Source of the DNA: a bacterium
Lineage (GTDB): Bacteria > UBA10199 > 2-02-FULL-44-16 > JAAZCA01
NCBI GenBank assembly: GCA_963674695.2
Contig: CAXXGI010000001.1
Span: forward strand, 970,813 to 1,034,812
DNA: 64,000 nucleotides
Reading direction: 5' to 3'
Shown here: piece after piece, positions 1,118 through 18,432 of the stretch
How the letters are laid out: the number at the start of each line of letters is the position of its first letter
Position numbering within the stretch: position 1 is the first letter of the stretch
Made by a program: the position numbers and the translations under genes
Notes under the pieces: model-generated
Databases searched by the model: none
Seen by the model: only the letters and a program-made list of their open reading frames with translations
What the model was told of the DNA's origin: nothing

Positions 1118-2905
1118 ATGGGCAGAGTAACAGAGAGCTTTGGACGACGACAGTGCATCGAAAATATCCCTTCTGCCGATCCGGCAAGGCAGGACTGTTT
1201 TCGCATCGTCAAGGATTGCAAGCGCGCTGACGGAAATGGTGTGAGCACGTTCGTCTTCGAGAAGGAAGAAGGCCCGGCCATCATGCGGACGATACAACCA
1301 GGCCTTCGCAAATGCATGCTCTTCGCACCCGAGGCGGCCAAAGAGGGGTACGTCCTCCAGGGGGCAAAGACCAGGCCCCAGAAACGAAAGCGACGGTCCA
1401 AGACGGCCAAACCCCGGAAACGAACGCGCGCAAAAAAGACAGCACGCGGCGGCAGGGGAAAGAGACTCATCCGATCGGTGCTGAGGGGGCTCGAGGACGG
1501 TCGCGTCGATATGGAGCGCGACTGGGAGCGCGTTCGCGATCACCGCTCCTTCAAGAAGAGTCCCAAGATAAGGGCGGACTACTTCGAGGCGGTGGCGAGA
1601 TCGGACGCGGTCATCCCTGAGGATGTGAAAAAATCGATGTTCACGTGGTTCAAGAAATTTTTCGCCACACATCCAAACGAACGCCTCACGATGTATGGTG
1701 ACATGATCGTCCGCGCAGCCAGCATCGCCGACAGACAGAGACGGTATCCCGAAGCGATCATCATGGACATGGAGAAAGCGGCGAAGGTATACGGAGAAAC
1801 TCTTTTCGACTATTATAAAAACTATGCCAGGCCGCGACTGATCAATCCCAAGACAAACACATTTCACCCCCACGTTGTCGATCACCTCATCCACTACGTC
1901 ACGAGCGAATTGAATGAAGAGATCGAGCGAGACCTCTATGCCGTCGGAGATCCGCGGTTGAATGCATTCATCATACACATACAGCTTCAACCCCGTTATC
2001 TGCATGAAGATGCCGGAAAAGCGGGCGAGGAGCCCTATGATTATTACAAGGGACACGTTCGCGGGCTTCTCATCGATCCGACAACAAACACGTTTCGTAC
2101 CCATGTCGTCGATGCCCTCGTAGAATTCATCATGAAGGGGGGAGAGTTTGAACCCAGGATCAAAAGGGATCTCATCGCCGTCGGAGATCCCCGATTGAAC
2201 AGACTCATCGAATTAGATGATGCTGACGATAAAAAGATGCAGAAACTCCTTGCTGTGCTTGCAGACCCCTACACCCTTCTCAACGGAACCCTGAGTGGAA
2301 GCAACTATCAAATCATTGTTAATCTCCGTAGCGATCTCGGATCTATGATACTGAGCAAGGCCCTCTGGCAAACCGCACACAGAATCCCAATGGCCCCGAA
2401 AATAGCGGGGGCAGGTTTGATGTTTCTCTCCCCACTCTCGGAATTTTTTATCCACAAGTGGGTCTATAAGCGGATCCATCAGAACACCGATCGGGAAAAG
2501 GTCATCGACCCCGCGCCCCGCCAGTGGAACCCGGATCTCGCCAAGGTGTGGCAGGGGGCCATCAGGGCATTAAAACCGTACGCACCCCCCGAGGGGGTCG
2601 AGCCCAGAACGCCGTTCGAGGTGCGCATAAAGGATGCCCTTGAACACCTCAATGAGGCGGACGAAGAGCTGTGTACGAGTTTTTTCTCCCGCCGGCTCGG
2701 AGACGACTATTATGAGGAACGCGAAGCGATGAACGCGTATCTGATCGGCGATCGACGCGATCTCGATCTCAAAACGCTCACGAGGAAGATCGATCGGAAA
2801 TCGAAATTCTGCCGCACGCTCGTCGAAATGCTCGAACACATCCCTCCCGAATTTTCCTATTACGACCGCGCACAAAAACTCCTGCGCGTCCTGTCCGAAG
2901 GGTAA
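1118..2905 (+). CDS. Hypothetical protein with ~60-aa internal duplication
   Basis: 595-aa ORF; two copies of DYYK...LI(N/D)PxTNTFxxHVVD...RDLxAVGDPRLN. Confidence 0.7.
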   Translation: MGRVTESFGRRQCIENIPSADPARQDCFRIVKDCKRADGNGVSTFVFEKEEGPAIMRTIQPGLRKCMLFAPEAAKEGYVLQGAKTRPQKRKRRSKTAKPRKRTRAKKTARGGRGKRLIRSVLRGLEDGRVDMERDWERVRDHRSFKKSPKIRADYFEAVARSDAVIPEDVKKSMFTWFKKFFATHPNERLTMYGDMIVRAASIADRQRRYPEAIIMDMEKAAKVYGETLFDYYKNYARPRLINPKTNTFHPHVVDHLIHYVTSELNEEIERDLYAVGDPRLNAFIIHIQLQPRYLHEDAGKAGEEPYDYYKGHVRGLLIDPTTNTFRTHVVDALVEFIMKGGEFEPRIKRDLIAVGDPRLNRLIELDDADDKKMQKLLAVLADPYTLLNGTLSGSNYQIIVNLRSDLGSMILSKALWQTAHRIPMAPKIAGAGLMFLSPLSEFFIHKWVYKRIHQNTDREKVIDPAPRQWNPDLAKVWQGAIRALKPYAPPEGVEPRTPFEVRIKDALEHLNEADEELCTSFFSRRLGDDYYEEREAMNAYLIGDRRDLDLKTLTRKIDRKSKFCRTLVEMLEHIPPEFSYYDRAQKLLRVLSEG

Positions 2906-2970
2906 CTGGTGAGCTCTGCATGTCACACGTCTTTGCTCACGGTTTACAGTTCACGGTTCACAGTTCACCA

Positions 2971-4452
2971 TTACCACGCCGAGAGCGAGAGGTAGGCGAC
3001 GAGGTTCTGCGGGAGGATGCCGAAGAGGATGACAACCATCGCGGCGATGGCCAGGACCGCCACGAGCGGCGCGGGGATGGCCCGCACCGTTGCATCTTCA
3101 TCGAAGGCGCCCATCGATGCGTGCGGCTCGCAGAAGACCATCGTCCATACGGGCTTGAGGAAATAAGCGATCGACAGGACCGATCCGAATGCGCCGACGA
3201 GCACGAGTCCCACATCGCCGCCCCCGAGTGCGGTGAGAAAAAGATCATAGCGCGCCACGAAGCCGACGGTCGGCGGCAGGCCTGCAAGGGCCAAGAGGAT
3301 GAGGGAGAAGGTTGCGGCCAATACGGGCCGACGAGAAGCCAGGCCTGCGAGCTGGGCACTGTCCACGCTGCCCGCACCCCCGATGGCACTCACCGCGGCA
3401 AAGGCCGCCGCCATGAGCACGACCGTCACGAGCAGGAAGAGGATGAGCGCACGCGAAACACCCGAAGGATCGGCCGCGACCGACGGCAACACGATCAGCG
3501 CCAGCCCCACCTGCGCAATCGCCGCGAAACCGAGCATGCGTTTGAGATTCGTCTGCGCCAACGCGCCGAGGTTGCCCACGACGATCGAGGCGACGGCGAG
3601 CGCTGTGAGCAGACCCCGCCAGAGCGGGCCGATGGCCGCAACCGCGAGCGCCACCCGCATGAAGGCGATGAGCCCCGCCGCCATCGCACCGGTGGTGAGG
3701 ATTACCGCTGCCGCCGGCGGCGCGCCCTCGATCGCATCGGGCATCCAGGCATGAAAGGCCGCGATCGCAATCCGGAGGGCGAAGGCGACCGTCACCAATC
3801 CCACGCCGACCAGGACGAGCGAACGCATCGGAGAGGCCATGCATTCTGGAATGCGCTCGGCGATCGCCCCCAACTCCGTCGCGCCGGTGACGCCGAAGAG
3901 ACAGGCCGCACCCATCGCCATGAAGGCGGTCGCCAGGAGGGAGGGGATGAAGAACTTCACCGCCGCCTCGTGCGCGCGCCCGCCGGCCCTTCCGCCGACG
4001 ATCAACGCAACCGCGCCCGCCGCAATGATTTCGAAGGCGATGAGGATCACCACGAGATCGGCGGCGGCAACGAGGAGCGCCATGCCGAAGGCGATCACGC
4101 CCAACATGGCCGCGGGGACACTTCGTTCAACGCCCTCGCCGCGATCGGAGCAAGAGACGAGCAGCGCAAAGGCCGTCGCGATGATCGCGATCTGCCAGCC
4201 GACGATCGTGACGCGATCGATGAGGAACATTCCTTGTGATGCGCCGGAAGCGGATGCCCACATCTGCCAGGAGAGGAAAAAGCTGACACCGAGACCTGCA
4301 CTGAGCACGGCAATGTGTGCACGCCGGGAGGGGCGAACGAGTTCGATTCCACCGACGACGAGTGCGGTCACCGCCAAGACGATGAGCGGGAGTGCGCTTC
4401 GCACGAATGCGACCCCCCCCTGCCCACCCCACTGTACCACCGCTTCGAACAT
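2971..4452 (-). CDS. nuoN: NADH-quinone oxidoreductase subunit N-like protein (divergent)
   Basis: EAAVKFF, FHAWMPDAIEGAP, GNLGALAQTNLKRML, LAGLPPTVGF; ATG at 4452 after GGAGG; the upstream extension in the ORF track is tandem repeat. Confidence 0.85.
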   Translation of the reverse strand: MFEAVVQWGGQGGVAFVRSALPLIVLAVTALVVGGIELVRPSRRAHIAVLSAGLGVSFFLSWQMWASASGASQGMFLIDRVTIVGWQIAIIATAFALLVSCSDRGEGVERSVPAAMLGVIAFGMALLVAAADLVVILIAFEIIAAGAVALIVGGRAGGRAHEAAVKFFIPSLLATAFMAMGAACLFGVTGATELGAIAERIPECMASPMRSLVLVGVGLVTVAFALRIAIAAFHAWMPDAIEGAPPAAAVILTTGAMAAGLIAFMRVALAVAAIGPLWRGLLTALAVASIVVGNLGALAQTNLKRMLGFAAIAQVGLALIVLPSVAADPSGVSRALILFLLVTVVLMAAAFAAVSAIGGAGSVDSAQLAGLASRRPVLAATFSLILLALAGLPPTVGFVARYDLFLTALGGGDVGLVLVGAFGSVLSIAYFLKPVWTMVFCEPHASMGAFDEDATVRAIPAPLVAVLAIAAMVVILFGILPQNLVAYLSLSAW

Positions 4453-4460
4453 CGAACCTC

Positions 4461-4552
4461 CGTAACTCGTGACTCGTAACTCGTAACTCGTGACTCGTAA
4501 CTCGTAACTCGCGAGCTGTTCACGGTTCACGGTTCACGGTTCACGGTTCACG
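4461..4552. repeat. Tandem 7-mers: (CGT[A/G]ACT)x7 then (GTTCACG)x5
   Basis: Read directly between nuoM and nuoN; overlaps the nuoM stop. Confidence 0.95.
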
Positions 4553-6043
4553 CTCCCCTGCGGGGACGATCATGCGCACGCGTGTCGCCAGCGTGCAGAA
4601 GGTCTTCGCCGAGGCAAGCGCCGGGCCGAGCCACATCCTCGGAGCGACGCCGACGCCGATGAGGATCGCCAGAGCGGGAATGAGCAGCACATATTCGCGC
4701 AAACCGAGATCACGCCGATGGCGCGCCTCTTCATCGGACGATCCCGCGATCAATCGCAGAGCGATGCGTCCGACGGCGACCGGCACGAGCACAACGCCTG
4801 CGAGCGCGATGGCCGCCATGATCGTCTGCGTCTGAAAACTCCCGAGGAAGACGAGCCACTCGCCCGCGAAGACGGCAAACCCCGGAACGCCCGCCGCCGC
4901 GACGAGCAGGACCAGCAGCACCACCGCCATGCGCGGAAGACGCGCACCGAGCTTCGCGCTTCCATCGAGCGCATCGGTCAAACCACGACCGGAGAGCATG
5001 CCGGCCATACCCAGAAGTCCAACGCTGACGAGCCCCTGCGCGGCCAGCACCACCACCGCCCCCGCGCTCGCCTCCACATTGAGCGACGAAAACCCGAGCA
5101 GAACGATTCCCGTCTGGGCGACGGCCAGATACGCGACCGCACGCTTGAGCGTGGGCTGCACCGCAGCCATGAGCGCACCGGCGATGATTCCGACGAGTGC
5201 GAGAATGCAGAGCACGGGTACGGCAACCGCGAGCGCCTCAGGGAACAGCGGCATCGCAAAGCGATAGAATCCGTAACAGCCCATCTTGAGCAGGCCCCCG
5301 ACGATCAGGATCGCCCCGGCGGTGGGCGCCTCGGCCACCGCATCCGCGAGCCACATATGCAGGCCCACGACGGCAGCGGGGATGGCAAACGCGACCGCCA
5401 TGGCCAGGAAGAGCCAGCGCTGCACCGCGAAGGGGAAATCGATCGCGTACCAATCGAGCAGGTCGAACGAGCCCACCACGCCCGCGGCCGCGAGCATCGC
5501 CACGAGGAGCAGCATGCCGCCCGCCATCACGAAGAGCAGGAAGGTATGCGCCGCGCGCAGGCGCCCGGAGAGCCCGAAGCTGCCGACCAGGAAGAAGAGA
5601 GCGATGAGCACCACCTGCCAACTGACATAGAAGAGAAAGATGTCGAGCGCGGCGAAGACGCCCATGAACCCGGCTTCCGCCACGAACAGCCAGACATGAA
5701 ATCCGCGCACGCGTTCATCGACTTCATTCCAGGAGACGAGCACGCCCATGGGCACGATGAGCGCGATCATCAGCATCAGGAGCATCGAGGCGCCATCGAC
5801 GCCGACGTGATAGTGGATGCCGAAGGCGGGGATCCAGGAGGCAATCTCACCGAGTTCGAACTCGCGCGAACCCTCGATGCCAAACCAGGCCAGCGCACAG
5901 AGCGCGAGCGTGACGAGCGCCACGACGAGCCCCACCGCGCGCACCGCCCCCTTCCACCGCGCCGGCACGAGCAGGATGAGCGCCGCACCGAGAAGCGGCA
6001 GAAAGATGATCGCGGTCAGCATGTGGGAAAGCAGCAGTTGCAT
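4541..6043 (-). CDS. nuoM: NADH-quinone oxidoreductase subunit M-like protein (divergent)
   Basis: WIPAFGIHYHVGVDG, ALDIFLFYV, LHMWLADAVAEAPTAG, LLKMGCYG, FAGEW. Confidence 0.88.
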   Translation of the reverse strand: MQLLLSHMLTAIIFLPLLGAALILLVPARWKGAVRAVGLVVALVTLALCALAWFGIEGSREFELGEIASWIPAFGIHYHVGVDGASMLLMLMIALIVPMGVLVSWNEVDERVRGFHVWLFVAEAGFMGVFAALDIFLFYVSWQVVLIALFFLVGSFGLSGRLRAAHTFLLFVMAGGMLLLVAMLAAAGVVGSFDLLDWYAIDFPFAVQRWLFLAMAVAFAIPAAVVGLHMWLADAVAEAPTAGAILIVGGLLKMGCYGFYRFAMPLFPEALAVAVPVLCILALVGIIAGALMAAVQPTLKRAVAYLAVAQTGIVLLGFSSLNVEASAGAVVVLAAQGLVSVGLLGMAGMLSGRGLTDALDGSAKLGARLPRMAVVLLVLLVAAAGVPGFAVFAGEWLVFLGSFQTQTIMAAIALAGVVLVPVAVGRIALRLIAGSSDEEARHRRDLGLREYVLLIPALAILIGVGVAPRMWLGPALASAKTFCTLATRVRMIVPAGEREP

Positions 6044-6049
6044 AATTTC

Positions 6050-6123
6050 CGTGACTCGTGACTCGTGACTCGTAACTCGTAACTCGTAACTCGTGAACCG
6101 TAATTCGTGACTCGTGAACCGTA
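6050..6123. repeat. Tandem 7-mer CGT[A/G]ACT-type repeat (~10 units)
   Basis: Read directly upstream of the nuoM start. Confidence 0.9.
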
Positions 6124-6331
6124 AGCAATCCGGGACTGGATCCCCGACTACACCACTCGGGGATGACATCGCGTAAAAACCAGCCTCCGTGATCCGTTCG
6201 ATCGAAGATCGTGTCGCCGCGAGGGAACACGCGAGGCCATTTTTACAGCTTCATCGGAAAAATGGTCTCGCGTTTTCCCGGAAGGCGCCAAGCAACTTCG
6301 CGCCGCGAGATGAAACTCCGGACTTTCCCCC

Positions 6332-8320
6332 TCACCCCAGCACCAACACCCCGACGACGACGACGGCGCCGATGAGGACATAGAGCAGATACTGTCGCAC
6401 GGCACCGGTCTGTGCAGCGGCCGCGACCGACGCGAAGAAACCGATCGCGCGCGCGCTGCCCCCGATGAGAATACCGGACAGAAACGTGCGGTCGATCAAT
6501 TTCCACAAGATCACGCGCGCGACCCACCCGATGGGGCGCACCACGAGCGTCTGCGCTATTTCTTCGAGATACCAGCCCGAGCGCGCGCTGTGATAGAGCG
6601 GCGCGATGCGCCGGAGCAGACGCTCCGACCAATCGCGGCGCTGCGCATAGATGAGCCAACCCAGGATCGAACAGTGCACCGTCCAGAGGACGGCGATGAC
6701 ATAGAGGATGATCTGCACCGCGCGCGAGACATTATTCATGCCGCGGCTGACCTCGCCCGGCAGGAGTTCGCCCAGCCAGACGCCGAACCGATCGGCGCCG
6801 CCCAGGATTTCGGGGACGGCGAGCACCCCGCCGAAGAGACAGGCGGTGGCCAGCAGCATCAGCGGCACCACCATCGCCACGGGCGATTCGGTCACGCGTT
6901 TGAAACGATCGAGTTCGATCTCGGTGCGACCGAAGAAGATCGCTCCCGCCACGCGAAAGATCGCAAAGGCGATCATCCCCATGGCCGCGAAGGTCATGAT
7001 CCAGATGAGGACCTCGCCGCGCGCATAGGCATGGATGAGAATAGCGGAGAGCCCCGCAAATCCCGCCAGGGGAACCACGCCCGCGAGCGTAGCCGCAGCG
7101 ATGACGAAGGTCCAGGCCGTGATCGGCATGCGCTGACCCAGGCCGCCCATGCCGAAGAGATCGCTCTCGCCCTGCAGGGCACGCATCGCACCGGCGGCGG
7201 CGAGCATGCAGAGCAGGAGTGCAAGCGCGACGACCACGAGATGATAGACGGCGGTGGTAAAGACCCCCAACCCCGCCGCGATGAGGACGATGCCGAGCTC
7301 GGCGGCGGCGATCTGCGCAAGGATGCGTCGCACATCGGTCGACGCCAGCGCCGTGGCGCCCGCCGCGAGTGCGGTGATTCCGCCGAGCAACGCCATCGCC
7401 TTGAGGACACTCGGCGCGAGCGCGAAGATGCCATCCATGCGCGCAACGAGGGCGACCGCCGTAGCGCCGATGACCACCGCCTGCAGAAAGGCCGCGACCG
7501 GAACGGGCGAACGCGTCGTCGAGGGAAGCCAGAACAAAAACGGCACCTGTGCGGAACGCACCGCCACCGCCACGAGCAGCAGCAACGCGATGACGTGCGC
7601 AACCGGCAAAAACGCGGCCTGATACTGCACTACGTTTTCGAACGCGAGCGCGCCATCGCCGGGAGGAACATCGGCCGCCGCCATCGCCCCGACGATGAGA
7701 AAGCAGGCGGCCATGAGCGCCGCATCGCCAATGCGATCGACGACGAAGACCACGACTCCATGCTGCGCACCGTCGCGATCGGAGGAGACGAATCCCGCCG
7801 TCAGCGATGCACACAACCCCACGCCCATCCATCCGACGATGAAGAACAGAAGGTTCTCCGCCAGCACCGCCATGAGCGCGAAGAAGAGCATCGCATGGAT
7901 GAGAGAAGCGGCGCGCGCCAAGGAGCGCCGCCCCTCCATCGCGCCGGGCAGCGCCATCTGCGCAAAGAGGGCCGCGATGCTGAGCGTCAACCCGAGCGTG
8001 AGCGAGAGCTGATCGAGACGCAGACCCACGTCGACCACGAAATCCTTTGAGGCGATCCAGGTGAAGAGCGGTCCGGTGATCGCCGCAGCAGAGCCGACCT
8101 CGAATCCCATGAGCGTCCAAAACAGGACGATCATGATGGCGACGGTGAGCAGGGCACCGACGACGCCGATGAAGACGCTCAGCGGCCGAAATCGTTCATG
8201 CTCGGCGCGTGCGCCCGCCATCGCGATGAACGCGCAGCATGCCGACGACGTCAGCGGAACGGCCAGGACGCACCAGATGAGTGTCTGCAGTGAAACGATC
8301 TGATAGAGCGATTCGAGCAT
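6332..8320 (-). CDS. nuoL: NADH-quinone oxidoreductase subunit L-like protein (divergent)
   Basis: LRLDQLS, GWMGVGLC, RIGD, SAQVPFLFWLP, MGGL, C-terminal QTGAVRQY; position in the K-L-M-N series. Confidence 0.88.
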   Translation of the reverse strand: MLESLYQIVSLQTLIWCVLAVPLTSSACCAFIAMAGARAEHERFRPLSVFIGVVGALLTVAIMIVLFWTLMGFEVGSAAAITGPLFTWIASKDFVVDVGLRLDQLSLTLGLTLSIAALFAQMALPGAMEGRRSLARAASLIHAMLFFALMAVLAENLLFFIVGWMGVGLCASLTAGFVSSDRDGAQHGVVVFVVDRIGDAALMAACFLIVGAMAAADVPPGDGALAFENVVQYQAAFLPVAHVIALLLLVAVAVRSAQVPFLFWLPSTTRSPVPVAAFLQAVVIGATAVALVARMDGIFALAPSVLKAMALLGGITALAAGATALASTDVRRILAQIAAAELGIVLIAAGLGVFTTAVYHLVVVALALLLCMLAAAGAMRALQGESDLFGMGGLGQRMPITAWTFVIAAATLAGVVPLAGFAGLSAILIHAYARGEVLIWIMTFAAMGMIAFAIFRVAGAIFFGRTEIELDRFKRVTESPVAMVVPLMLLATACLFGGVLAVPEILGGADRFGVWLGELLPGEVSRGMNNVSRAVQIILYVIAVLWTVHCSILGWLIYAQRRDWSERLLRRIAPLYHSARSGWYLEEIAQTLVVRPIGWVARVILWKLIDRTFLSGILIGGSARAIGFFASVAAAAQTGAVRQYLLYVLIGAVVVVGVLVLG

Positions 8321-8321
8321 G

Positions 8322-8627
8322 CTATCCCTTCAAGAGCGAAAGGTCATCCACATCGCGCCCGGCGTCTTTGCGCTCGAGCGCACGGGCGAGTCCAAAGCCG
8401 ACGATCACCTGCAGGACCATGATGACGAAAAGGGTGAGCACGAGCACCCGGCCCGCCAACGCAAGATTCCAGCGGGAGAAGGTCACGACCGCCACCACCG
8501 CCGCCAGGAGCATGAGCTGTGCCGACAAGAGGATCGCCACGAGATTTCGGCGTACGATCATGCCGAATGCCCCCAACACAAAGAGCAACGCACTCGCGGC
8601 GAATGCCGGATGCAACGCGGGAATCAT
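8322..8627 (-). CDS. nuoK: NADH-quinone oxidoreductase subunit K-like protein
   Basis: LFVLGAFGMIVRRNLVAILLS...DVDDLSLLKG; start overlaps the nuoJ stop. Confidence 0.85.
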   Translation of the reverse strand: MIPALHPAFAASALLFVLGAFGMIVRRNLVAILLSAQLMLLAAVVAVVTFSRWNLALAGRVLVLTLFVIMVLQVIVGFGLARALERKDAGRDVDDLSLLKG

Positions 8628-9121
8628 CGAACCTCCCGGGTCATGACGACGGCGCTGATGAGCGCAAAGAGCGCGGCCAGCACCGACAGTTCCATGAAGG
8701 CCGAATCCAAAAACGTCGCAGCCAGGAGCGGCATGCCCTGAAACCCGCGCGGAAGCGGCGGCATCATCCCGGCCGATGGCGGCACGAATGCCACGAGGAT
8801 GAGCACCCCCAGATACGCGACCGCGATCACTCCGAGGACCGTGCCGAATCGAACGGACCGGCGCGAACACCGCTGCGCCTCCTGCGCCGAACCGTTTAGC
8901 GCGGCCGCGAAGATGGTCGCCCCACCGATGGCGACGAGCATGCAGGCGAGTGCGGCCATGCCATCGGCGAGCAGCGCCACGAGCCCCGCCGCCGCGATGA
9001 ACGTCACCGCAAACCAACGCGCCCCGTCACGCAGCTCGCTGCGTGTCACCGCGGCAAAGGCCGCAACGACGACGATGGTCGCACAGACGACGACAGCGAT
9101 CCCCTCGACGATCGACGGCAC
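8624..9121 (-). CDS. nuoJ: NADH-quinone oxidoreductase subunit J-like protein (divergent)
   Basis: 165-aa hydrophobic protein with VAIGGA and C-terminal FMELSVLAALFALISAVVM; lies before nuoK. Confidence 0.7.
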   Translation of the reverse strand: MPSIVEGIAVVVCATIVVVAAFAAVTRSELRDGARWFAVTFIAAAGLVALLADGMAALACMLVAIGGATIFAAALNGSAQEAQRCSRRSVRFGTVLGVIAVAYLGVLILVAFVPPSAGMMPPLPRGFQGMPLLAATFLDSAFMELSVLAALFALISAVVMTREVR

Positions 9122-9131
9122 ATCCCCTCCT

Positions 9132-10064
9132 TCACCACAAGGTCATGAGGGCCAAGGCAACCCCCGTGACGAACAGGTTGATACATGCCAACGGCAGAAA
9201 CCATCGACGCATGCGCTGCCATCTCGCCGATTCGCGCTGCGCATCGAGCCGGCGTTCGATCCAACCGATCGCTGCGCACAACGCCGCCGTCTTGATGACG
9301 AAGACGACGAGCCCGGCCCCCATGCTCCACGTGCCGATGGCCCAATCGAGCAACTGATGTCCTGCCACCGGGGTGGCGATGAGATGGCGCAGCGCCGCGC
9401 CATCCAGCGAGGGAATCGCCCAGCCGCCCAGAAAGAGCGTCGCTCCCCACGCGCCCAACACCACCAGCAACATGCCGTCGGCCATGCGGCGAAAGAAGAC
9501 GGCTTCGCAAGCCACGGCGCCGGGCACACTGAATGCCCACAGCTGGGCGGCCCCGAAGAGAAAGAGCACAAACCCGATCGGCTGCACCACGATACCCCAG
9601 CGGAGGAGATCGGCGCCGCCGACATCGAGCATGGCATGCAACCGCATCGATCCGTGCACCAGGGCAACCGCACCGGCGACGAAGAGCAGCGCAGCCCCTG
9701 CGGAGATCAGGCGCAGACGCTTGGCGGGCATCGTCTCGCCATCATCGGCAAGCGTTTGTGCAAACGCACTCGCCAGGATGAGCGCCAAAATGATCAGCGC
9801 GCTGCTGGGCAGATCGGCCAGCGGCGAGATGAAGGCAATCGCACCAATTGTCGTCGTCGCCATGAACGGCACGAGCCCGAGCGCGGCCGCCGCCGTCAGA
9901 AAGGCGATGACGGGAGCCAGCAGCGAGAACGCGGGAAGATCGCCGCTCGCATGTGCGCCCGCATATCGCGCACGCGTCATCCGACAGACAGACCAGACGA
10001 GTCCGCTCGACGCCACGAGCAGGACGCCAACGGAAACGATCGCTTGGATGAATGCAGCCAACAT
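9132..10064 (-). CDS. nuoH: NADH-quinone oxidoreductase subunit H-like protein (highly divergent)
   Basis: LAPVIAF...LVPF, WGIVVQPIGFVLF, TLFLGGW, FVIKT, WFLPLACINLFVT. Confidence 0.7.
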   Translation of the reverse strand: MLAAFIQAIVSVGVLLVASSGLVWSVCRMTRARYAGAHASGDLPAFSLLAPVIAFLTAAAALGLVPFMATTTIGAIAFISPLADLPSSALIILALILASAFAQTLADDGETMPAKRLRLISAGAALLFVAGAVALVHGSMRLHAMLDVGGADLLRWGIVVQPIGFVLFLFGAAQLWAFSVPGAVACEAVFFRRMADGMLLVVLGAWGATLFLGGWAIPSLDGAALRHLIATPVAGHQLLDWAIGTWSMGAGLVVFVIKTAALCAAIGWIERRLDAQRESARWQRMRRWFLPLACINLFVTGVALALMTLW

Positions 10065-10077
10065 CTCACATCCTCAA

Positions 10078-10281
10078 TTCCCTCCCCCTTGTAAGGGGAG
10101 GGTCAGACTGCTGACAAAGTCTTCTCGCGCTGTCATTCCCGCGGGGGTAAGCGGGAATCTCGATTATCACAGCACGTCGAGATCCCCGCTTTCGCGGGGA
10201 TGACAACGGCAGGGTTTGTCATCAATCTGGGTTAGGGTGGGGTAGATCGGGGACTCATGATCTACCTCCCCCCATCCCCTC
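10078..10281. mobile_element. Nested REP/MITE-like composite
   Basis: CCCTCCCC/GGGGAGGG-type palindrome interrupted by a 126-bp element with TIRs at 10104-10118 and 10215-10229, which contains a GTCATTCCCGC...GCGGGGATGAC REP pair. Confidence 0.6.
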
Positions 10282-11127
10282 TTACTGAATCCCCCACTTG
10301 TCGAGCGTGCCGGGACTGGAATCGTTGACGATGCTATAGGTGACGCCATCTTCCTGCTGGGCCTGTAGCTTCAGAAACTCCTGCGCCGCCGCCCGGCCCT
10401 CGAAGCTCTTCTTGTCCTTCATCAGATCGCGATAGGTCCGCAGCGCTTCCTGGCGATAGGGCTCCGCGCGGATGAGCAGCTCGTCGGGGGCAATCGCGCT
10501 GTTGAACAGCACCCAGCTCCACTTGCGGTGCACAAACCAGACGTCTTCGTTCACGCGCGCCCAGAGGAGTCTGCCCCGACGGTTCCACTCCCCCCTCGGT
10601 CGCCGTTTGAGAAAGGCCTTGATGCGCGGCAGCACCTTGTCGGGATGTCCGCGCACCTCGCGCAGCAGGGTGTAGAAATCGGCCTCGGCCGCCCAGGAGC
10701 TCTTCGGGAAATCGGAGAGGAGGCGACGATACTGCACACCTGTGTAGGGGATGTAGGTGATGGCGTGCTCATAGGCGAACGATCCCGACCCAAAGCGCGC
10801 GTTCAACCCCTGCGCCTCGGCCTGCATGCAGGCGGGCGTGCGCGGCGCGCCCTTGGCCCAATAGCACTTCTTCTCCGCGCGTTCGGTGAGGCCATCCTGC
10901 AGCCGATCGAGCAGGCGCCCACAGAGTGCGAGCGCCTCGGGCGTACGCTTTTTCTCCTTCGGGTGCGCCTGCGCCCAGCGACAGATGAGCTCGGCGGCTT
11001 GCTCCGGCTGCGTCTTCATCAGGGCCTTGCCCTGATCCAGCTCGTCGGCCCCCGCCGGCGCCACCCAGAGAAAGGTGCCCACGAGGAGGCAACACACGAT
11101 GCGAGCGATATCAGTGATCCGTTTCAT
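10282..11127 (-). CDS. Exported TPR/BamD-like hypothetical protein
   Basis: Signal peptide MKRITDIARIVCCLLVGTFLWVAPAGA; LLSDFPKSSWAAEA TPR-type motif; overlaps the nuoA-like stop. Confidence 0.7.
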   Translation of the reverse strand: MKRITDIARIVCCLLVGTFLWVAPAGADELDQGKALMKTQPEQAAELICRWAQAHPKEKKRTPEALALCGRLLDRLQDGLTERAEKKCYWAKGAPRTPACMQAEAQGLNARFGSGSFAYEHAITYIPYTGVQYRRLLSDFPKSSWAAEADFYTLLREVRGHPDKVLPRIKAFLKRRPRGEWNRRGRLLWARVNEDVWFVHRKWSWVLFNSAIAPDELLIRAEPYRQEALRTYRDLMKDKKSFEGRAAAQEFLKLQAQQEDGVTYSIVNDSSPGTLDKWGIQ

Positions 11128-11509
11128 CGATTCCCCCTTCTTCAAAGAGATCATCATCCGTGCGGACCGGACGGGCACCGGCCAGGGCCCGAGGGACACA
11201 GCCGATGGCGACGAGCAGCAGCGCGACAAGGCCCGCGATGAGGACGACGTGGAGCAGGGCCGCTATCGCGTTCTCCCCCTCGGACTGCAGGATGAGCCCC
11301 GAGGCCGCTGGAATGAGCGCCAGGGCGATGAGGCCCAGAAACGCCAAACCCGCAGCGCCCAGCACCGCCGCATCTGTGCGCGGCGAGGGCAGCAGACCCG
11401 GAGCGGGCGACGACGACGCCCGCCGACGGCGCATCCGCACAACAAACACCAGGGCGATGAGCGCCGAAATGACCATCCACACGAAATACGCCAGACCGTT
11501 GGATTCCAT
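11111..11509 (-). CDS. Three-TM membrane protein, probable divergent NuoA
   Basis: 132 aa, 3 hydrophobic segments with a loop after TM1, first gene of the nuo-like cluster; YECG and FDxE motifs absent. Confidence 0.5.
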   Translation of the reverse strand: MESNGLAYFVWMVISALIALVFVVRMRRRRASSSPAPGLLPSPRTDAAVLGAAGLAFLGLIALALIPAASGLILQSEGENAIAALLHVVLIAGLVALLLVAIGCVPRALAGARPVRTDDDLFEEGGIDETDH

Positions 11510-11670: not shown

Positions 11671-14022
11671 TTGTTTCGAACGCGCCACACCATAATCGTC
11701 CTGGGTTTTGCCCTCTTCGCGATGTTCTTCGGGGCAGGAAATCTCATCTTCCCCCCGGCGCTCGGGCGCCTCTTCGGCGATGGGTTCTCCTGGGCGGCGA
11801 TCGGCTTTTTGCTCACGGGCGTGGGCCTCCCGCTCATGGGCGTGATGGCGGTCGCCAAGGCCGAGGGCGGCATCGACCGGATCGCGGCACGCCTCGACCC
11901 TCGAATCGCCAAGCTCCTCTCCATCATCGTCATGCTCGCGATCGGCCCGTTTCTGGCCATCCCGCGCACAGCGGCCACCACCTTTGAGCTCGGCATCGCG
12001 CCCAACCTCCCCTGGCTGGGACTCGCCCCTTTCTCCGTCATCTACTTCGTCGTGGTCCTCTTCTTCGCCCTCAATCCGCTGTCGGTGGTCGATCGGATCG
12101 GAAAGATCCTCACCCCGCTGCTCTTGGCCGCACTCCTGGCCCTGATCTTCAAGGGACTGGCCCACCCCATCGCCGCACCGATCGCGGGCGCCACACCCCA
12201 CCCCTTCGGAACCGGGCTCATCGAGGGGTATCAGACGATGGACCTGATGGGCGCGGTGATCTTCGGCATCATCATCTTGAACGAACTGCGCAGTAAAGGG
12301 GTCTTCGAAAAAAGCCTGCAGATGAAGAGCATCGTGCGCGCGGGGCTCATCTCGGCAGGAGGACTGGCCGTCGTCTACGGGGGGCTGGTCTACCTCGGCG
12401 CCACCACCAGCGCCACCATCGGCGAAATGTCGCGCACCCAGCTGCTGCTCTTCATCGCCCATGAACTCTTCGGCCGCGGCGGCGGCATCGTCCTGGGTCT
12501 GGCCGTCTCGATGGCCTGCCTGACCACCGCCATCGCGCTCACCGTCGTCTGCGGGGAATACTTCAACAAGCTCTCCTTCGGGCGACTGAGCTACCGCACC
12601 GTCTGTCTCGTCGTAGCGGGCTTGAGTCTCGTCTTCGCCAACTTCGGTCTCGAGCAGATCATTGCGCTGGCCGTGCCGCCGTTGGTGGCGCTCTATCCCG
12701 TCGTGATGGTCCTGGTGATCCTCTCGCTCCTGAGCCCGCGCCTTTCCAACCGCAACCTCTGGCGCGGCGCGGTGGCGGGCGCCTTCGCCGCGGGGCTTAT
12801 CAAGGCGATCCACATCGCCCAGATCGGCAACGAGCACGTCGATGCGCTCTTCGATCTGATCCCCTTGACCGACCACGGCCTGGGTTGGGTCCTGCCGACC
12901 GTCGCCCTCGGGTTTGCCGGGTCGCTCATCCGCGAACGCGAGGACGAGCATTTTCGCGTGCTGGTCCTCTGCCCCAGCCAGCTCGAAACCCGCGTGGCGA
13001 TCTATGACGACACCATGCCGGTCTTCGAGTCCCGCGTCCCCCACAACCTGGACCGAGCGATGGATACCTCTGAACGCATTGCGGAGCTGAACTCGCTCAA
13101 GGAACACCTGCGCGATCGCCTCTCGCAGGAACACATCGATCTGTCGACCGTGAATGCCGTGGTCGCGCGCGGAGGATTCGTGCATCCGCTTCCGGGTGGC
13201 GTCTACCGCATCGCCGAACCGATGGTGCGCGATCTGGCCGAACACGCCTGGCGCCACCACCCCTCGAACTGGGGGGCGGCTATCGCCTTCGAGATTGCCA
13301 ACGAAAACGATATCGACGCCTATATCGTCGATCCGGTCGTGGTCGACGAGATGGACGAGATCGCGCACCTGCTCGGGCTGCCCGACATGCGGCGCTCCTC
13401 CATCTTTCACGCCTCCAGCCAGAAGCAAACCGCACGTCGCATCGCCAAGAACCTCTGGAAGAGCTACGACCGCATCAACGTCATCATCGCCCACCTGGGC
13501 GAGGGGACTTCCGTCGGTGCCCACCGCAAGGGGCGCGTGGTCGATGTGAACAACGCCCTCGACGGCGATGGGCCGTTTTCGATGCTCAACGCGGGAAGCC
13601 TCCCCACCGTCGATGTCGTGCGCCTCTGTTTCGAAGAGGGCGCCAGCCAAGAAGCGGTCCTCGCCCGTATCCGCAGTCATGGGGGACTGGCCGCCCACTT
13701 GGGCACGGCCGATGCGGAGGTGATCTGTGCGCGCGTGGCCTCGGGCGATACCAAGGCCTGCGAAGCGATCGAAGCCATGGCCTATCAGACGGCGAAATGG
13801 ATCGGCGCGATGAGCATCCCGCTCGATGGCCGTGTGGATGGCATCGGCATCACGGGCGACCTCGCCGCCTGCCCGGAGCTCACCCGCGCTATCCGCAAAC
13901 GCGTACGTCACCTCGCCCCTGTCTTCATCTTTCCGAACGACTCGGAGACACACGCACTCGTCGGAGGCGTGCTGCGCGCCCTGCGCGGCGAAGAGGAAGT
14001 GCGGGAGTATGAACCGCTGTAA
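11671..14022 (+). CDS. brnQ: Fusion of branched-chain amino acid carrier BrnQ with a butyrate kinase-like domain
   Basis: N-terminal FAMFFGAGNLIFPP, AIPRTAATTFE, GYQTMD, ACLTTAIAL; C-terminal VVARGG, VDPVVVDEM, IFH, DVNNALDGDGPFS, AMAYQTAKWIG. Confidence 0.9.
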   Translation: MFRTRHTIIVLGFALFAMFFGAGNLIFPPALGRLFGDGFSWAAIGFLLTGVGLPLMGVMAVAKAEGGIDRIAARLDPRIAKLLSIIVMLAIGPFLAIPRTAATTFELGIAPNLPWLGLAPFSVIYFVVVLFFALNPLSVVDRIGKILTPLLLAALLALIFKGLAHPIAAPIAGATPHPFGTGLIEGYQTMDLMGAVIFGIIILNELRSKGVFEKSLQMKSIVRAGLISAGGLAVVYGGLVYLGATTSATIGEMSRTQLLLFIAHELFGRGGGIVLGLAVSMACLTTAIALTVVCGEYFNKLSFGRLSYRTVCLVVAGLSLVFANFGLEQIIALAVPPLVALYPVVMVLVILSLLSPRLSNRNLWRGAVAGAFAAGLIKAIHIAQIGNEHVDALFDLIPLTDHGLGWVLPTVALGFAGSLIREREDEHFRVLVLCPSQLETRVAIYDDTMPVFESRVPHNLDRAMDTSERIAELNSLKEHLRDRLSQEHIDLSTVNAVVARGGFVHPLPGGVYRIAEPMVRDLAEHAWRHHPSNWGAAIAFEIANENDIDAYIVDPVVVDEMDEIAHLLGLPDMRRSSIFHASSQKQTARRIAKNLWKSYDRINVIIAHLGEGTSVGAHRKGRVVDVNNALDGDGPFSMLNAGSLPTVDVVRLCFEEGASQEAVLARIRSHGGLAAHLGTADAEVICARVASGDTKACEAIEAMAYQTAKWIGAMSIPLDGRVDGIGITGDLAACPELTRAIRKRVRHLAPVFIFPNDSETHALVGGVLRALRGEEEVREYEPL

Positions 14023-14025
14023 ACA

Positions 14026-14176
14026 GTTCGATGGTCCGACGGTTCGTCGGTTCGTCGGTTACAGCGTTTCAATCCTGTGATAGAGCGTCAAATTCGATCG
14101 AACCATCGAACCATCGAACCATCGAACCATCGAACCATCGAACCATCGAACCATCGAACCATCGAACCATCGAACC
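14026..14176. repeat. (ATCGAACC)x10 preceded by degenerate inverted copies
   Basis: Perfect 80-nt array at 14097-14176; GGTTCG-type inverse units at 14026-14060. Confidence 0.95.
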
Positions 14177-14177
14177 C

Positions 14178-18332: not shown

Positions 18333-18432
18333 ACCGTAAACCGTGAACGGCAAGCATCATTGTGTTAGAGTTCACTGTTCACTGTTCACTGTTCACTGTT
18401 CACTGTTCACTGTTCACTGTTCACTGTTCACG
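18322..18432. repeat. (GTTCACT)x8 plus GTTCACG, with upstream inverted units
   Basis: Array at 18370-18432 ends at a GGAGG RBS; GTGAAC/GTAAAC units at 18322-18350. Confidence 0.95.

What the first reader, a model, noticed from the sequence alone, without database searches (positions are those of the whole stretch)
2971..11509. Membrane-arm-only complex I paralog with most proton-pumping residues replaced
Seen: the order A?-X-H-J-K-L-M-N, with no nuoB-G and no nuoI, and all ORFs full length. Compared by eye with canonical motifs (E. coli numbering from memory): NuoL GWEGVG->GWMGVG (E144), GKSAQ->VRSAQ (K229), LIHAA->FLQAV (H254), THAFFKA->VVALALL (H338/K342), FSKD->AGLS (K399). NuoM FWE->SWQ (E144), AVKMP->AIPAA (K234), H248/H322/H348 lost, K265 and E407 kept. 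NuoN K217->R, K247->M, H305->Q, K395->R, E133 kept. NuoK both Glu->Gln. NuoH lacks ERK, QxxADxxK and the acidic PFDxxE loop that meet the quinone site. Flanking Gly/Pro structural motifs are kept. Inference: selection preserves the fold but not redox-driven pumping, so this may be a repurposed channel, transporter or scaffold rather than a respiratory complex or a decaying pseudogene.
Basis: partly seen in the sequence, partly recalled or inferred. Interest (0 to 1): 0.85.

Follow-up and report, generated by a model that had tools for sequence, protein, structure and literature searches.

The report
Pump-dead complex I membrane arm
This anaerobe has lost the whole electron-transfer half of respiratory complex I and most proton-path residues of the membrane half, yet keeps the membrane genes and a periplasmic helper protein intact, so the remnant probably has a new, non-respiratory role.

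Summary

It is not a paralog. It is the lineage's own nuo operon, which in relatives reads nuoA-B-X-C-D-E-F-G-H-J-K-L-M-N with nuoI unlinked. Here it has lost B-G and nuoI. The 100%-complete genome holds no NuoB/C/D/I of complex I type and no other antiporter-like gene.

Seven of the 22 species genomes of the order carry such reduced, residue-degenerate clusters, scattered among canonical ones on trees. All seven keep L-M-N.

The genes are not drifting neutrally:
- There are no stops, where 6.5-8.7 are expected.
- Replacements are 64-69% hydrophobic, where about 36% is expected.
- Proline and arginine are avoided.
- The lateral-helix end of NuoL is the best conserved part.

X is a secreted TPR-like protein of a small uncharacterised family, and it evolves at the canonical rate.

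Best reading: a redox-dead, pump-dead membrane arm kept as a folded membrane scaffold, probably together with X. Its function is unproven. A slowly eroding relic is the main rival.

The parts
11111..11509 (-). A?: a 132-aa protein with three hydrophobic segments at the position that nuoA holds in relatives. It may be a degenerate NuoA; homology is not demonstrable.
   Evidence: ORF. Codon-position GC is 0.74/0.48/0.75, like neighbouring genes. hhalign against NuoA of relatives gives 1.2%. tblastn with NuoA of 2 relatives does not hit it. Similar small TM ORFs lie upstream of X in G002 and G008. A promoter-like site lies at 11575-11547, but the count is not above chance.
10282..11127 (-). X: a 281-aa secreted TPR-like all-helical protein with two invariant cysteines. 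In relatives it is encoded between nuoB and nuoC.
   Evidence: No Pfam or NCBIfam match. Signal-peptide-like N-terminus and invariant C88/C100. AF2 model has pLDDT 87.9 and pTM 0.81. Only generic TPR folds match (Z up to 10.7). Synteny. Keeps 97% of canonical-invariant sites and evolves at the canonical rate.
10065..10281 (.). X-H' spacer (217 nt) holding multi-copy repeat sequence. The nuoC-G genes of relatives would lie here.
   Evidence: Contig depth is 260-590 here against about 22 in flanking bins. Gene order in relatives.
9132..10064 (-). H': a degenerate, N-terminally shortened NuoH homologue (310 aa) without quinone-site or E-channel charges.
   Evidence: PF00146 at 31.2 bits over residues 194-300 only. 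hhalign 98.7% to NuoH, aligning to E. coli residues 80-321. 3 of 24 conserved charged columns kept.
8624..9121 (-). J': a degenerate NuoJ homologue (165 aa).
   Evidence: PF00499 E 0.088, below the cut-off. hhalign 96.7%, E 4.6e-10.
8322..8627 (-). NuoK homologue (101 aa) with both membrane glutamates replaced by glutamine.
   Evidence: PF00420 2.1e-16. E36Q and E72Q.
6332..8320 (-). NuoL homologue (662 aa). The proton-path residues are lost and the C-terminal lateral-helix region is best conserved.
   Evidence: Share of conserved sites kept is 0.32-0.57 in residues 131-450 against 0.71-0.83 in residues 451-662.
6044..6331 (.). L-M spacer (288 nt) with a heptamer tandem array at 6050-6124 directly upstream of the nuoM start. 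In relatives L and M are 10-90 nt apart.
   Evidence: relatives.
4541..6043 (-). NuoM homologue (500 aa from MQLLL). E144Q, K234P and three His are lost; K265 and E407 are kept.
4453..4552 (.). M-N junction with two heptamer tandem arrays (4461-4511, 4518-4552); multi-copy in the metagenome.
2971..4452 (-). NuoN homologue (493 aa from MFEAV). K217R, K247M, H305Q, K395R; E133, E154, K158 and H224 are kept.

Best explanation
The cluster is what remains of this lineage's own respiratory complex I after the whole electron-transfer arm was lost: nuoB, C, D, E, F, G and the unlinked nuoI.

What remains is the membrane arm (H', J', K, L, M, N, perhaps a degenerate A) plus X. X is a lineage-specific secreted TPR-like protein that sits between nuoB and nuoC in relatives.

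The arm can no longer do redox-driven proton pumping. No antiporter-like subunit keeps a full TM5-Glu / TM7-Lys / TM8-Lys(His) / TM12-Lys(Glu) set, both NuoK glutamates are Gln, and NuoH has lost its quinone-site and E-channel charges.

The proteins are nevertheless still made and selected to fold and assemble in the membrane.

My inference, not shown, is that the arm survives as an inert membrane scaffold or anchor. The NuoL lateral helix would still clamp L-M-N together, and the scaffold would act with the periplasmic protein X, whose own function is unchanged. Ion-motive work in this anaerobe would be done by Rnf and ATPases instead.
For: Loss of the peripheral arm:
- The genome is 100% complete in 3 contigs and has only these three PF00361 genes.
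- It has no PF00346 and no PF00329 match.
- Its single PF01058 hit belongs to a soluble NiFe-hydrogenase operon.
- It has no NuoI over the cut-off: best 47.8 bits, against 110-122 bits in 5 of 5 canonical relatives.
- tblastn with NuoA/B/C/D of 3 relatives finds nothing. NuoE/F/G queries hit only 25-47% paralogues far from the window.

Orthology:
- The canonical operon A-B-X-C-D-E-F-G-H-J-K-L-M-N is present in relatives.

Pump death:
-. Conserved charged/His columns kept: L 12 of 26, M 14 of 22, N 8 of 12, K 3 of 6, H 3 of 24.

Still under selection:
- A neutral simulation, run until the observed loss of invariant sites, gives a mean of 8.7 stops in L+M+N+K, or 6.5 under a conservative calibration. 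0 of 300 replicates were stop-free in either case. The observed number is 0.
- At substituted sites, 64-69% of residues are hydrophobic against 35-37% under neutrality (z +10 to +12). Pro is 1-4% against 14-16%, and Arg is also depleted.
- The lateral-helix/TM16 region of NuoL keeps 71-83% of conserved sites, against 32-57% in the pump core.

Recurrence:
- 7 of the 22 genomes of the order have reduced, degenerate clusters. All have uninterrupted L, M and N frames.
- On the X tree these genomes need 4 changes, and 0% of bootstrap trees unite them.
- G007/G012 are sister to canonical G005 on the LMN tree.
- In that pair dN/dS is 0.28-0.45, against 0.06-0.15 in a canonical pair at similar synonymous divergence.

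X constraint:
- X keeps 97% of canonical-invariant sites. Its identity to canonical family members is 0.59, against 0.60 among those members themselves. This holds even in G002, whose L/M/N are only 19-24% identical.

Alternative ion-motive machinery:
- The genome has RnfD at 344 bits and several ATPase subunits, but no COX1 and no cytochrome bd.
Against: - No expression data exist.
- Formerly invariant sites are lost at least as fast as variable sites: L 0.53, against 0.90-1.00 in canonical genomes. Replacements at key positions differ between lineages. This is the signature of relaxation, not of a new shared function.
- Different genomes have lost different further genes. G009 lacks H, G014 keeps only X-L-M-N, and G008 keeps a lone D'. 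This looks like stepwise erosion.
- G007/G012 keep the degenerate arm without X, so X cannot be the universal reason for retention.
- Repeat-filled spacers now separate X/H', L/M and M/N.
- dS is saturated in every comparison, so no trustworthy dN/dS exists for the query branch.
- The stop-codon test ignores indels and rests on a simple mutation model.
- Selection against toxic truncated or misfolded membrane proteins could mimic 'fold-preserving' selection without any function.
Confidence: 0.45

Rival explanations
1. A functionless relic in slow decay. The lineage stopped using complex I, the soluble-arm genes were deleted, and the membrane genes linger only because they are co-transcribed with the still-needed X. 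Nonsense or helix-breaking mutations in expressed polytopic proteins are harmful, so the frames stay open. The arm itself would do nothing and will eventually be deleted.
For: - Site-rate heterogeneity is flattened: invariant sites are kept only 53-73% of the time.
- Replacements at key sites are lineage-specific, with no convergent motif.
- There is a graded series of further gene losses across genomes.
- Spacers are expanded and filled with repeats.
- X is the only gene at the canonical rate.
- H' and J' are barely recognisable.
Against: - All seven reduced genomes, of 1.8-3.6 Mb and from at least six genera, still keep L-M-N as full frames, with terminal branches of 0.3-2.4 substitutions per site.
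- G014 has deleted H/J/K but not L/M/N.
- G007/G012 keep the arm without X at dN/dS below 0.5.
- The assembly region of NuoL is preferentially conserved.
Confidence: 0.3
2. An ion or solute translocator with altered chemistry. The arm would still conduct something, for example as a passive H+/Na+ leak or channel, or as an Mrp-like exchanger. It would use the remaining charges (N: E133, E154, K158, H224; M: K265, E407; several Lys-to-Arg changes) without redox drive.
For: - NuoN and NuoM keep part of their charged set.
- Stand-alone homologues such as Mrp and DabB are known to work without a redox arm (PDB hits 7qru, 6z16, 9rd0).
- K395R in NuoN recurs in 5 of the 6 reduced genomes with a NuoN in the alignment, the query included.
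Against: - No subunit keeps a complete set.
- NuoL has lost all four core positions and NuoK both Glu.
- Arg cannot shuttle protons (general chemistry, recalled).
- The replaced residues differ between lineages, so no common new pathway is visible.
- The eight ORFs of the cluster show no Pfam match for MrpE/F/G or DabA.
Confidence: 0.12
3. A still-respiratory membrane arm served by an unrecognised, non-homologous electron-input module encoded elsewhere.
For: - A MenA-like prenyltransferase is present (110.8 bits, over the cut-off), so a quinone may exist.
- Two NuoEFG-like soluble modules exist elsewhere on contig C1.
Against: - There is no NuoB/C/D/I to connect to.
- NuoH' lacks the interface and quinone-cavity residues and its N-terminal part.
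- The proton-path residues needed for any coupling are gone.
- No redox gene is adjacent.
Confidence: 0.04

Closest known systems
Respiratory complex I (NDH-1, nuoA-N), 14-subunit type, as in E. coli or Thermus (PDB 7p61, 4hea)
   Same: H', J', K, L, M and N are homologues, in the same order, of the membrane-arm subunits. Relatives in the same family carry the full operon. NuoL keeps its full length, including the lateral-helix region.
   Different: There is no NuoB, C, D, E, F, G or I anywhere in the genome. Most proton-path and quinone-site residues are replaced. An extra secreted TPR-like subunit gene (X) is present. nuoI is unlinked even in the canonical relatives.
11-subunit 'partial' complex I operons lacking NuoEFG (cyanobacterial NDH-1, Fpo, Campylobacter type), as discussed in PMC4453560 (passages read)
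   Same: They are a reduced form of complex I that has lost an input module.
   Different: Those keep the Q-module (B, C, D, I), a functional NuoH and intact pump residues, and remain redox-driven pumps. Here the Q-module is also gone and the pump residues are degenerate.
Mrp-type multisubunit cation/proton antiporters and DabAB CO2-uptake complexes (stand-alone antiporter-like modules; PDB 7qru, 6z16, 9rd0)
   Same: They use antiporter-like subunits without a complex I peripheral arm.
   Different: L/M/N here score as NuoL/M/N, far above the Mrp models. The cluster has no MrpB/E/F/G or DabA partner. The conserved Lys/Glu that those systems need are lost.
Pseudoenzymes / 'dead' paralogues retained as scaffolds (general concept, recalled)
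   Same: Catalytic residues are lost while the fold, the open frames and some constraint are retained.
   Different: Here it is a whole multi-subunit membrane machine, it is orthologous rather than paralogous, and no scaffolding role has been demonstrated.

Membership tests
Respiratory complex I (NDH-1 / Nuo) | Membrane subunits NuoH, J, K, L, M and N homologous and co-linear | tested here: met
   Pfam and NCBIfam for N, M, L, K; hhalign for J' at 96.7% and H' at 98.7%; same order as in E. coli and relatives.
Respiratory complex I (NDH-1 / Nuo) | Q-module NuoB, NuoC, NuoD and NuoI present | tested here: not met
   No PF00346 or PF00329 in the 100%-complete genome. The only PF01058 hit is a hydrogenase subunit. 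The best TIGR01971 hit is 47.8 bits against a cut-off of 113. tblastn with relatives' A/B/C/D finds nothing.
Respiratory complex I (NDH-1 / Nuo) | Conserved TM5 Glu, TM7 Lys, TM8 Lys/His and TM12 Lys/Glu in each antiporter-like subunit, and two Glu in NuoK | tested here: not met
   L has lost all four; M keeps 2 of 4; N keeps 1 of 4 (plus two Lys-to-Arg changes); K has both as Gln. All 13 canonical relatives keep them.
Respiratory complex I (NDH-1 / Nuo) | NuoH quinone-cavity and E-channel charged residues | tested here: not met
   3 of 24 conserved charged/His columns are kept, and the N-terminal part is missing.
Respiratory complex I (NDH-1 / Nuo) | NuoA present | tested here: inconclusive
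   A 3-TM ORF lies at the syntenic position, but hhalign gives 1.2% and tblastn finds nothing.
Mrp-type cation/proton antiporter | MrpA/D-type large subunits plus the small MrpB/C/E/F/G subunits | tested here: not met
   NCBIfam scores for the Nuo models exceed those for Mrp by far (L: 310 against 136 bits or less). No Mrp small-subunit family matches among the 8 ORFs.
Mrp-type cation/proton antiporter | Conserved membrane Lys/Glu of the ion paths | tested here: not met
   These are the same columns as above.
DabAB (DAB) inorganic-carbon pump | A DabA (DUF2309) partner next to a single NuoL-like DabB | tested here: not met
   None of the 8 ORFs matches such a family. DabB2 (9rd0) is only a distant hit, E 7e-10, against 1e-52 for NuoL chains.
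TPR-like helical repeat proteins (for X) | Stacked helix-turn-helix repeats forming a superhelix | tested here: inconclusive
   The AF2 model is all-helical with pLDDT 87.9. The best matches are TPR proteins at Z 9-10.7 (YbgF, YfgM, MamA, BamD), which lies within the range that the tool calls common for helical repeats. There is no Pfam TPR match.

The most novel reading that the evidence does not exclude
X plus the L-M-N arm is a new kind of envelope machine derived from complex I. The antiporter-like subunits have been stripped of proton chemistry and are kept as a rigid membrane platform clamped by the lateral helix. The platform positions a periplasmic TPR adaptor (X) that may dock on the lineage-specific periplasmic N-terminal extension of NuoL. 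This state has arisen repeatedly in an uncultured order of anaerobes. It would be the first case of a respiratory complex surviving as a multi-subunit 'pseudo-enzyme'.
Probability: 0.3. Interest if true: 0.85.

Novelty: new variant of a known kind. Interest (0 to 1): 0.7.

Why it matters
Complex I is usually either complete or lost as a whole. Known 'partial' forms still keep the quinone module and still pump.

Here a natural series of genomes from one order shows the enzyme at several stages:
- the full operon;
- no N-module with dead Q-site residues (G007/G012);
- a lone degenerate NuoD (G008);
- membrane arm only (the query, G002, G009);
- X-L-M-N only (G014).

In every case the antiporter-like trio stays open-framed and membrane-like while its proton-path residues vanish.

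This matters for three reasons:
1. It is a natural mutagenesis experiment. It shows which residues of NuoL/M/N/K/H are needed for folding and assembly and which only for pumping.
2. It suggests that the membrane arm can have a role independent of energy conversion.
3. It points to an uncharacterised periplasmic subunit (X) of the complex I of this lineage, whose function may explain the retention.

It is also a warning for annotation. These genes are called 'NADH-quinone oxidoreductase subunit L/M/N', but the organism cannot have complex I activity.

Tried and rejected
- The genome-contig scan with alignment A1 used the generic GWEGVG pattern. It gave no close relatives, so I used the genome search instead.
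- Complex prediction of NuoL (A3) with mature X (A2, residues 27-281) gave no answer: score 0.00, and the controls were not run. This is no evidence either way.
- The look-up of sequencing runs listed 3 runs of one study and no RNA holder.
- Read laying showed contigs identical to the window, apart from two spacer positions (6235, 10166) and high depth over the repeat spacers. It therefore gave no polymorphism for a pN/pS test.
- Codon models were not usable. The first IQ-TREE run timed out. GY+F3X4 runs gave omega 0.015-0.059 for both reduced and canonical sets, with tree lengths of 5.9-41 substitutions per codon, which shows synonymous saturation. I do not rely on them. NG86 values are also saturated in dS and are given only as rough comparisons.
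- The NuoA identity of A? could not be shown.
- I looked for a link between reduction and loss of quinone or oxidases and found none. A MenA-like gene is present in 22 of 22 genomes of the order, 11 of them over the cut-off. Cytochrome bd is present in 3 of 22, all canonical.
- I looked for shifted compensating charges and found none convincing. The crude hydropathy-core count was uninformative.
- Fold search for X gave only generic TPR or helical-repeat matches. The atlas gave unnamed clusters. The profile search found a small family: 15 clusters at E <= 1e-30 and 86 at E <= 0.001, the weaker ones apparently TPR-repeat matches.
- Literature searches listed no paper describing a peripheral-arm-less, residue-degenerate complex I. 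I saw only listings and abstracts, plus passages of PMC4453560. Subscription journals and supplements were not searched.
- The AU test did not formally reject a single origin of the X-bearing reduced genomes (p 0.0575).
- The promoter-like site upstream of A? is not above chance.

Full report
**What is there**

On the minus strand of window 2971-11509 lie eight ORFs:
- A? 11111-11509
- X 10282-11127
- H' 9132-10064
- J' 8624-9121
- K 8322-8627
- L 6332-8320
- M 4541-6043
- N 2971-4452

The longer ORF limits 4530, 6169 and 11229 run into repeat spacers or upstream sequence.

Pfam and NCBIfam identify N, M and L (PF00361, E 1e-43 to 9e-34; best NCBIfam models NuoN, NuoM, NuoL) and K (PF00420). 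J' and H' get only marginal matches, and X and A? get none. Profile comparison against NuoJ and NuoH of relatives plus E. coli shows that J' (96.7%, E 5e-10) and H' (98.7%, E 1.5e-16) are true homologues. H' aligns only to E. coli residues 80-321.

A? has coding-like codon-position GC and three hydrophobic segments. It gives no detectable similarity to NuoA.

**The residue claims**

I fetched the E. coli K-12 nuo operon and aligned each subunit with E. coli, 13 relatives that have a complete operon, and 6 relatives with reduced clusters. PDB alignments agree.
- L: E144M, K229R, H254Q, H338V, K342L, K399L (and D400S).
- M: E144Q, K234P, H248V, H322Q, H348Q, with K265 and E407 kept.
- N: K217R, K247M, H305Q, K395R, with E133 kept.
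- K: E36Q, E72Q.
- H: the ERK triplet, D63/K66/K70, E157, and D213/E216/E220/E228 are replaced or missing.

I also made a count that does not depend on recalled numbering. It uses the charged/His columns conserved in at least 13 of 14 canonical sequences (E. coli included). The query keeps 12 of 26 in L, 14 of 22 in M, 8 of 12 in N, 3 of 6 in K and 3 of 24 in H.

I found no compensating Lys or Glu beside the lost positions.

**Not a paralog: the lineage's own operon, reduced**

- The genome is 3.03 Mb in 3 contigs and 100% complete. It has only these three antiporter-like genes.
- NuoL homologues in public data fall into a distinct group at 39-46% identity, then drop to 35% or less.
- All 40 related species genomes searched have an orthologue.
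- In the relatives with complete clusters the order is nuoA-B-X-C-D-E-F-G-H-J-K-L-M-N.
- nuoI is encoded elsewhere in these relatives: 110-122 bits in 5 of 5 canonical genomes tested.
- X is thus a regular, lineage-specific member of the operon, found in 24 of 41 genomes including the query.

**The peripheral arm is gone from the whole genome**

- There is no PF00346 or PF00329 match.
- The single PF01058 match sits in a Fer4 / FAD-NAD / small-subunit / NiFe large-subunit operon, that is, a soluble hydrogenase.
- The best NuoI-model hit is 47.8 bits.
- tblastn with NuoA/B/C/D of three relatives finds nothing.
- NuoE/F/G queries hit two distant NuoEFG-like loci at 25-47% identity, and an RnfC.
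- The organism has Rnf and ATPase genes but no heme-copper or bd oxidase. A MenA-like gene is present.

**A recurrent state**

The order holds 22 species genomes. Fourteen have a canonical NuoD (over 350 bits), one is only 78% complete, and seven are reduced:
- The query and G002: A-like, X, H', J', K, L, M, N.
- G009: X, J', K, L, M, N.
- G008: A-like, X, D', H', J', K, L, M, N.
- G007 and G012: truncated A, B', C', D', H', J', K, L, M, N, without X, E, F or G.
- G014: X, L, M, N only.

None of the 5 reduced genomes tested has a NuoI over the cut-off.

The D' proteins have lost the conserved His and Tyr columns H224 and Y273. I recall these as the quinone-site residues; they are recalled, not shown here. 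B' of G007 keeps its four Cys.

All seven have lost many pump residues, with different replacements in each. One change does recur: K395R in NuoN, in 5 of the 6 reduced genomes with a NuoN in the alignment, the query included.

On the L+M+N tree the reduced sequences have long branches. The path to the query is about 1.0 substitution per site, against 0.14-0.34 for terminal branches in canonical family members. G007/G012 are sister to canonical G005 (SH-aLRT 99).

On the tree of X, which is not accelerated, the five X-bearing reduced genomes are scattered. G009 groups with G006, G014 with G015/G017, and G008 with the G001/3/5/10 group. The tree needs 4 changes, and 0% of bootstrap trees unite the reduced genomes. 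The AU test against one clade gives p = 0.0575, so a single origin is disfavoured but not formally rejected. G014 also belongs to another taxonomic family.

**Relaxed, but not neutral**

Relaxation is strong. At sites invariant in the 13 canonical relatives, the query keeps 53% (L), 66% (M), 65% (N) and 73% (K), against 0.76-1.00 for canonical sequences in leave-one-out tests. This is no better than at moderately conserved sites.

Three tests argue against pseudogene-like drift:

1. Stop codons. I simulated neutral mutation, using the base composition of the cluster's four-fold sites (85% G+C) and starting from a canonical relative's genes. I ran it until the observed loss at invariant sites was reached. 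L+M+N+K then carry a mean of 8.7 stop codons, or 6.5 under a conservative calibration. No replicate of 300 was stop-free, indels were not even modelled, and the real genes have no stops.
2. Residue choice. At sites that differ from a canonical relative, the new residues are 64-69% hydrophobic, against 35-37% expected. Pro is 1-4% against 14-16%, and Arg is 4-6% against 13-14% (z from -8 to +12).
3. Uneven constraint along NuoL. The pump core (residues 131-450) keeps 32-57% of conserved sites, lowest around TM7-8. The C-terminal part, with the lateral helix and last TM, keeps 71-83%. G009, G007 and G012 show the same trend.

For the same-genus reduced pair G007/G012, NG86 dN/dS is 0.28-0.45. 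For the canonical pair G001/G010 it is 0.06-0.15 at similar four-fold divergence. dS is saturated, and ML codon fits were unreliable.

**X**

X has an SPase-I-type signal peptide and two invariant cysteines. Its AF2 model is confident (pLDDT 87.9) and shows an all-helical repeat. That fold resembles TPR proteins only generically: Z 9-10.7 for YbgF, YfgM, MamA and BamD, and Foldseek E >= 3e-3.

The family is small. There are 94 clusters at 90% identity, all 'hypothetical' and labelled by depositors as Deltaproteobacteria, Pseudomonadota or 'bacterium' MAGs. At 50% identity there are 15 clusters with E <= 1e-30.

X is the one gene whose evolution is unchanged. It keeps 97% of invariant sites, and its identity to canonical family members is 0.59, against 0.60 among those members themselves. 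Even in G002, whose L/M/N are only 19-24% identical to canonical ones, X keeps 100% of invariant sites.

One lead is inference only and is confounded by kinship. All 23 other genomes with X have a NuoL that aligns from residues 1-4 of the query's unusual N-terminal extension. Eleven of the 17 genomes without X align only from residue 9 or later. By the known topology of NuoL (recalled), that extension should be periplasmic, so it could be a docking peptide for a TPR protein.

**Interpretation**

Shown:
- This is a redox-less descendant of complex I that lacks its pump residues.
- It is the lineage's own operon, and the same state recurs in relatives.
- Its products are still under selection for intact, membrane-compatible and apparently assembly-competent proteins.

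Inferred:
- The arm persists as an inert scaffold, probably together with X (confidence about 0.45).

Main rival:
- It is a relic kept only by co-transcription with X and by selection against toxic fragments (about 0.3). Flattened site rates, lineage-specific replacements, stepwise further losses and repeat-expanded spacers support this rival. The retention of L-M-N in all seven genomes weakens it, because that includes G014, which deleted H/J/K, and G007/G012, which lack X.

Less likely:
- An altered-chemistry transporter (about 0.12).
- An unknown redox partner (about 0.04).

**Limits**

- No expression data exist.
- No close relative or polymorphism is available for a clean dN/dS.
- The complex prediction gave no answer.
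- Paper supplements and subscription journals were not searched.

Noticed in passing
window 2937-2968, 4461-4552, 6050-6124, 14097-14176, 16161-16190, 18320-18431: Short tandem arrays of 7- or 8-nt units (for example CGTAACT/CGTGACT, GTTCACG, ATCGAACC x10) sit in intergenic spacers, often directly upstream of start codons. There are 62 perfect arrays of at least 4 copies genome-wide, most often with unit ACGAGTC. Metagenome contig depth over them is 10-25 times that of the flanks.
   Followed up: partly
relatives: L097, L098, L112, L114 and others; G001:C2:140647, G015:C8:36181, G025:C16:53120: In the canonical relatives nuoI is not in the operon (H is followed directly by J) but is encoded at an unlinked place. 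Their NuoH is about 420 aa, roughly 100 aa longer than in E. coli, because of an internal insertion: the Pfam NADHdh match comes in two stretches.
   Followed up: partly
window 11671-14022 (+): A 783-aa fusion of a branched-chain amino-acid transporter (PF05525, E 1e-119) with an acetate/butyrate-kinase-family domain (PF00871). It is divergently transcribed from the nuo remnant.
   Followed up: no
window 14031-18332 (+): A 1433-aa protein with two BcrAD/BadFG ATPase domains plus DUF2229 (a CoA-enzyme activase type). Its first ~50 codons run through the 8-nt tandem array, so the true start is probably downstream.
   Followed up: no
window 1118-2905 (+): A 595-aa ORF downstream of nuoN with no Pfam match. 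It has a Lys/Arg-rich N-terminal stretch and internally repeated segments (the 'DPRLN...' motif occurs twice).
   Followed up: no
L107 (G003), L097 (G006), L099 (G009), L105 (G011): C-termini of X: Some X orthologues carry a Pro/Ala-rich C-terminal tail ending in a conserved P-[KQ]-R-W-[QND] motif. The query's X lacks this tail.
   Followed up: no
G000:C1:481800-484650 and C1:799600-804100; G000:C3:1031047-1035223; G000:C3:1043867-1045952: The genome holds two NuoEFG-like soluble modules, a four-gene soluble NiFe hydrogenase operon, and an Rnf cluster (RnfD and RnfC). With no oxidases found, this fits a fermentative anaerobe that uses ferredoxin.
   Followed up: partly
L102 (G007) 5660-7723 and L103 (G012) 13117-14817: Genus g8 keeps degenerate NuoB'/C'/D' without NuoE/F/G/I or X. 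B' of G007 retains the four conserved cysteines, while D' has lost the conserved H224 and Y273 columns. This is a possible intermediate stage, or a different repurposing.
   Followed up: partly
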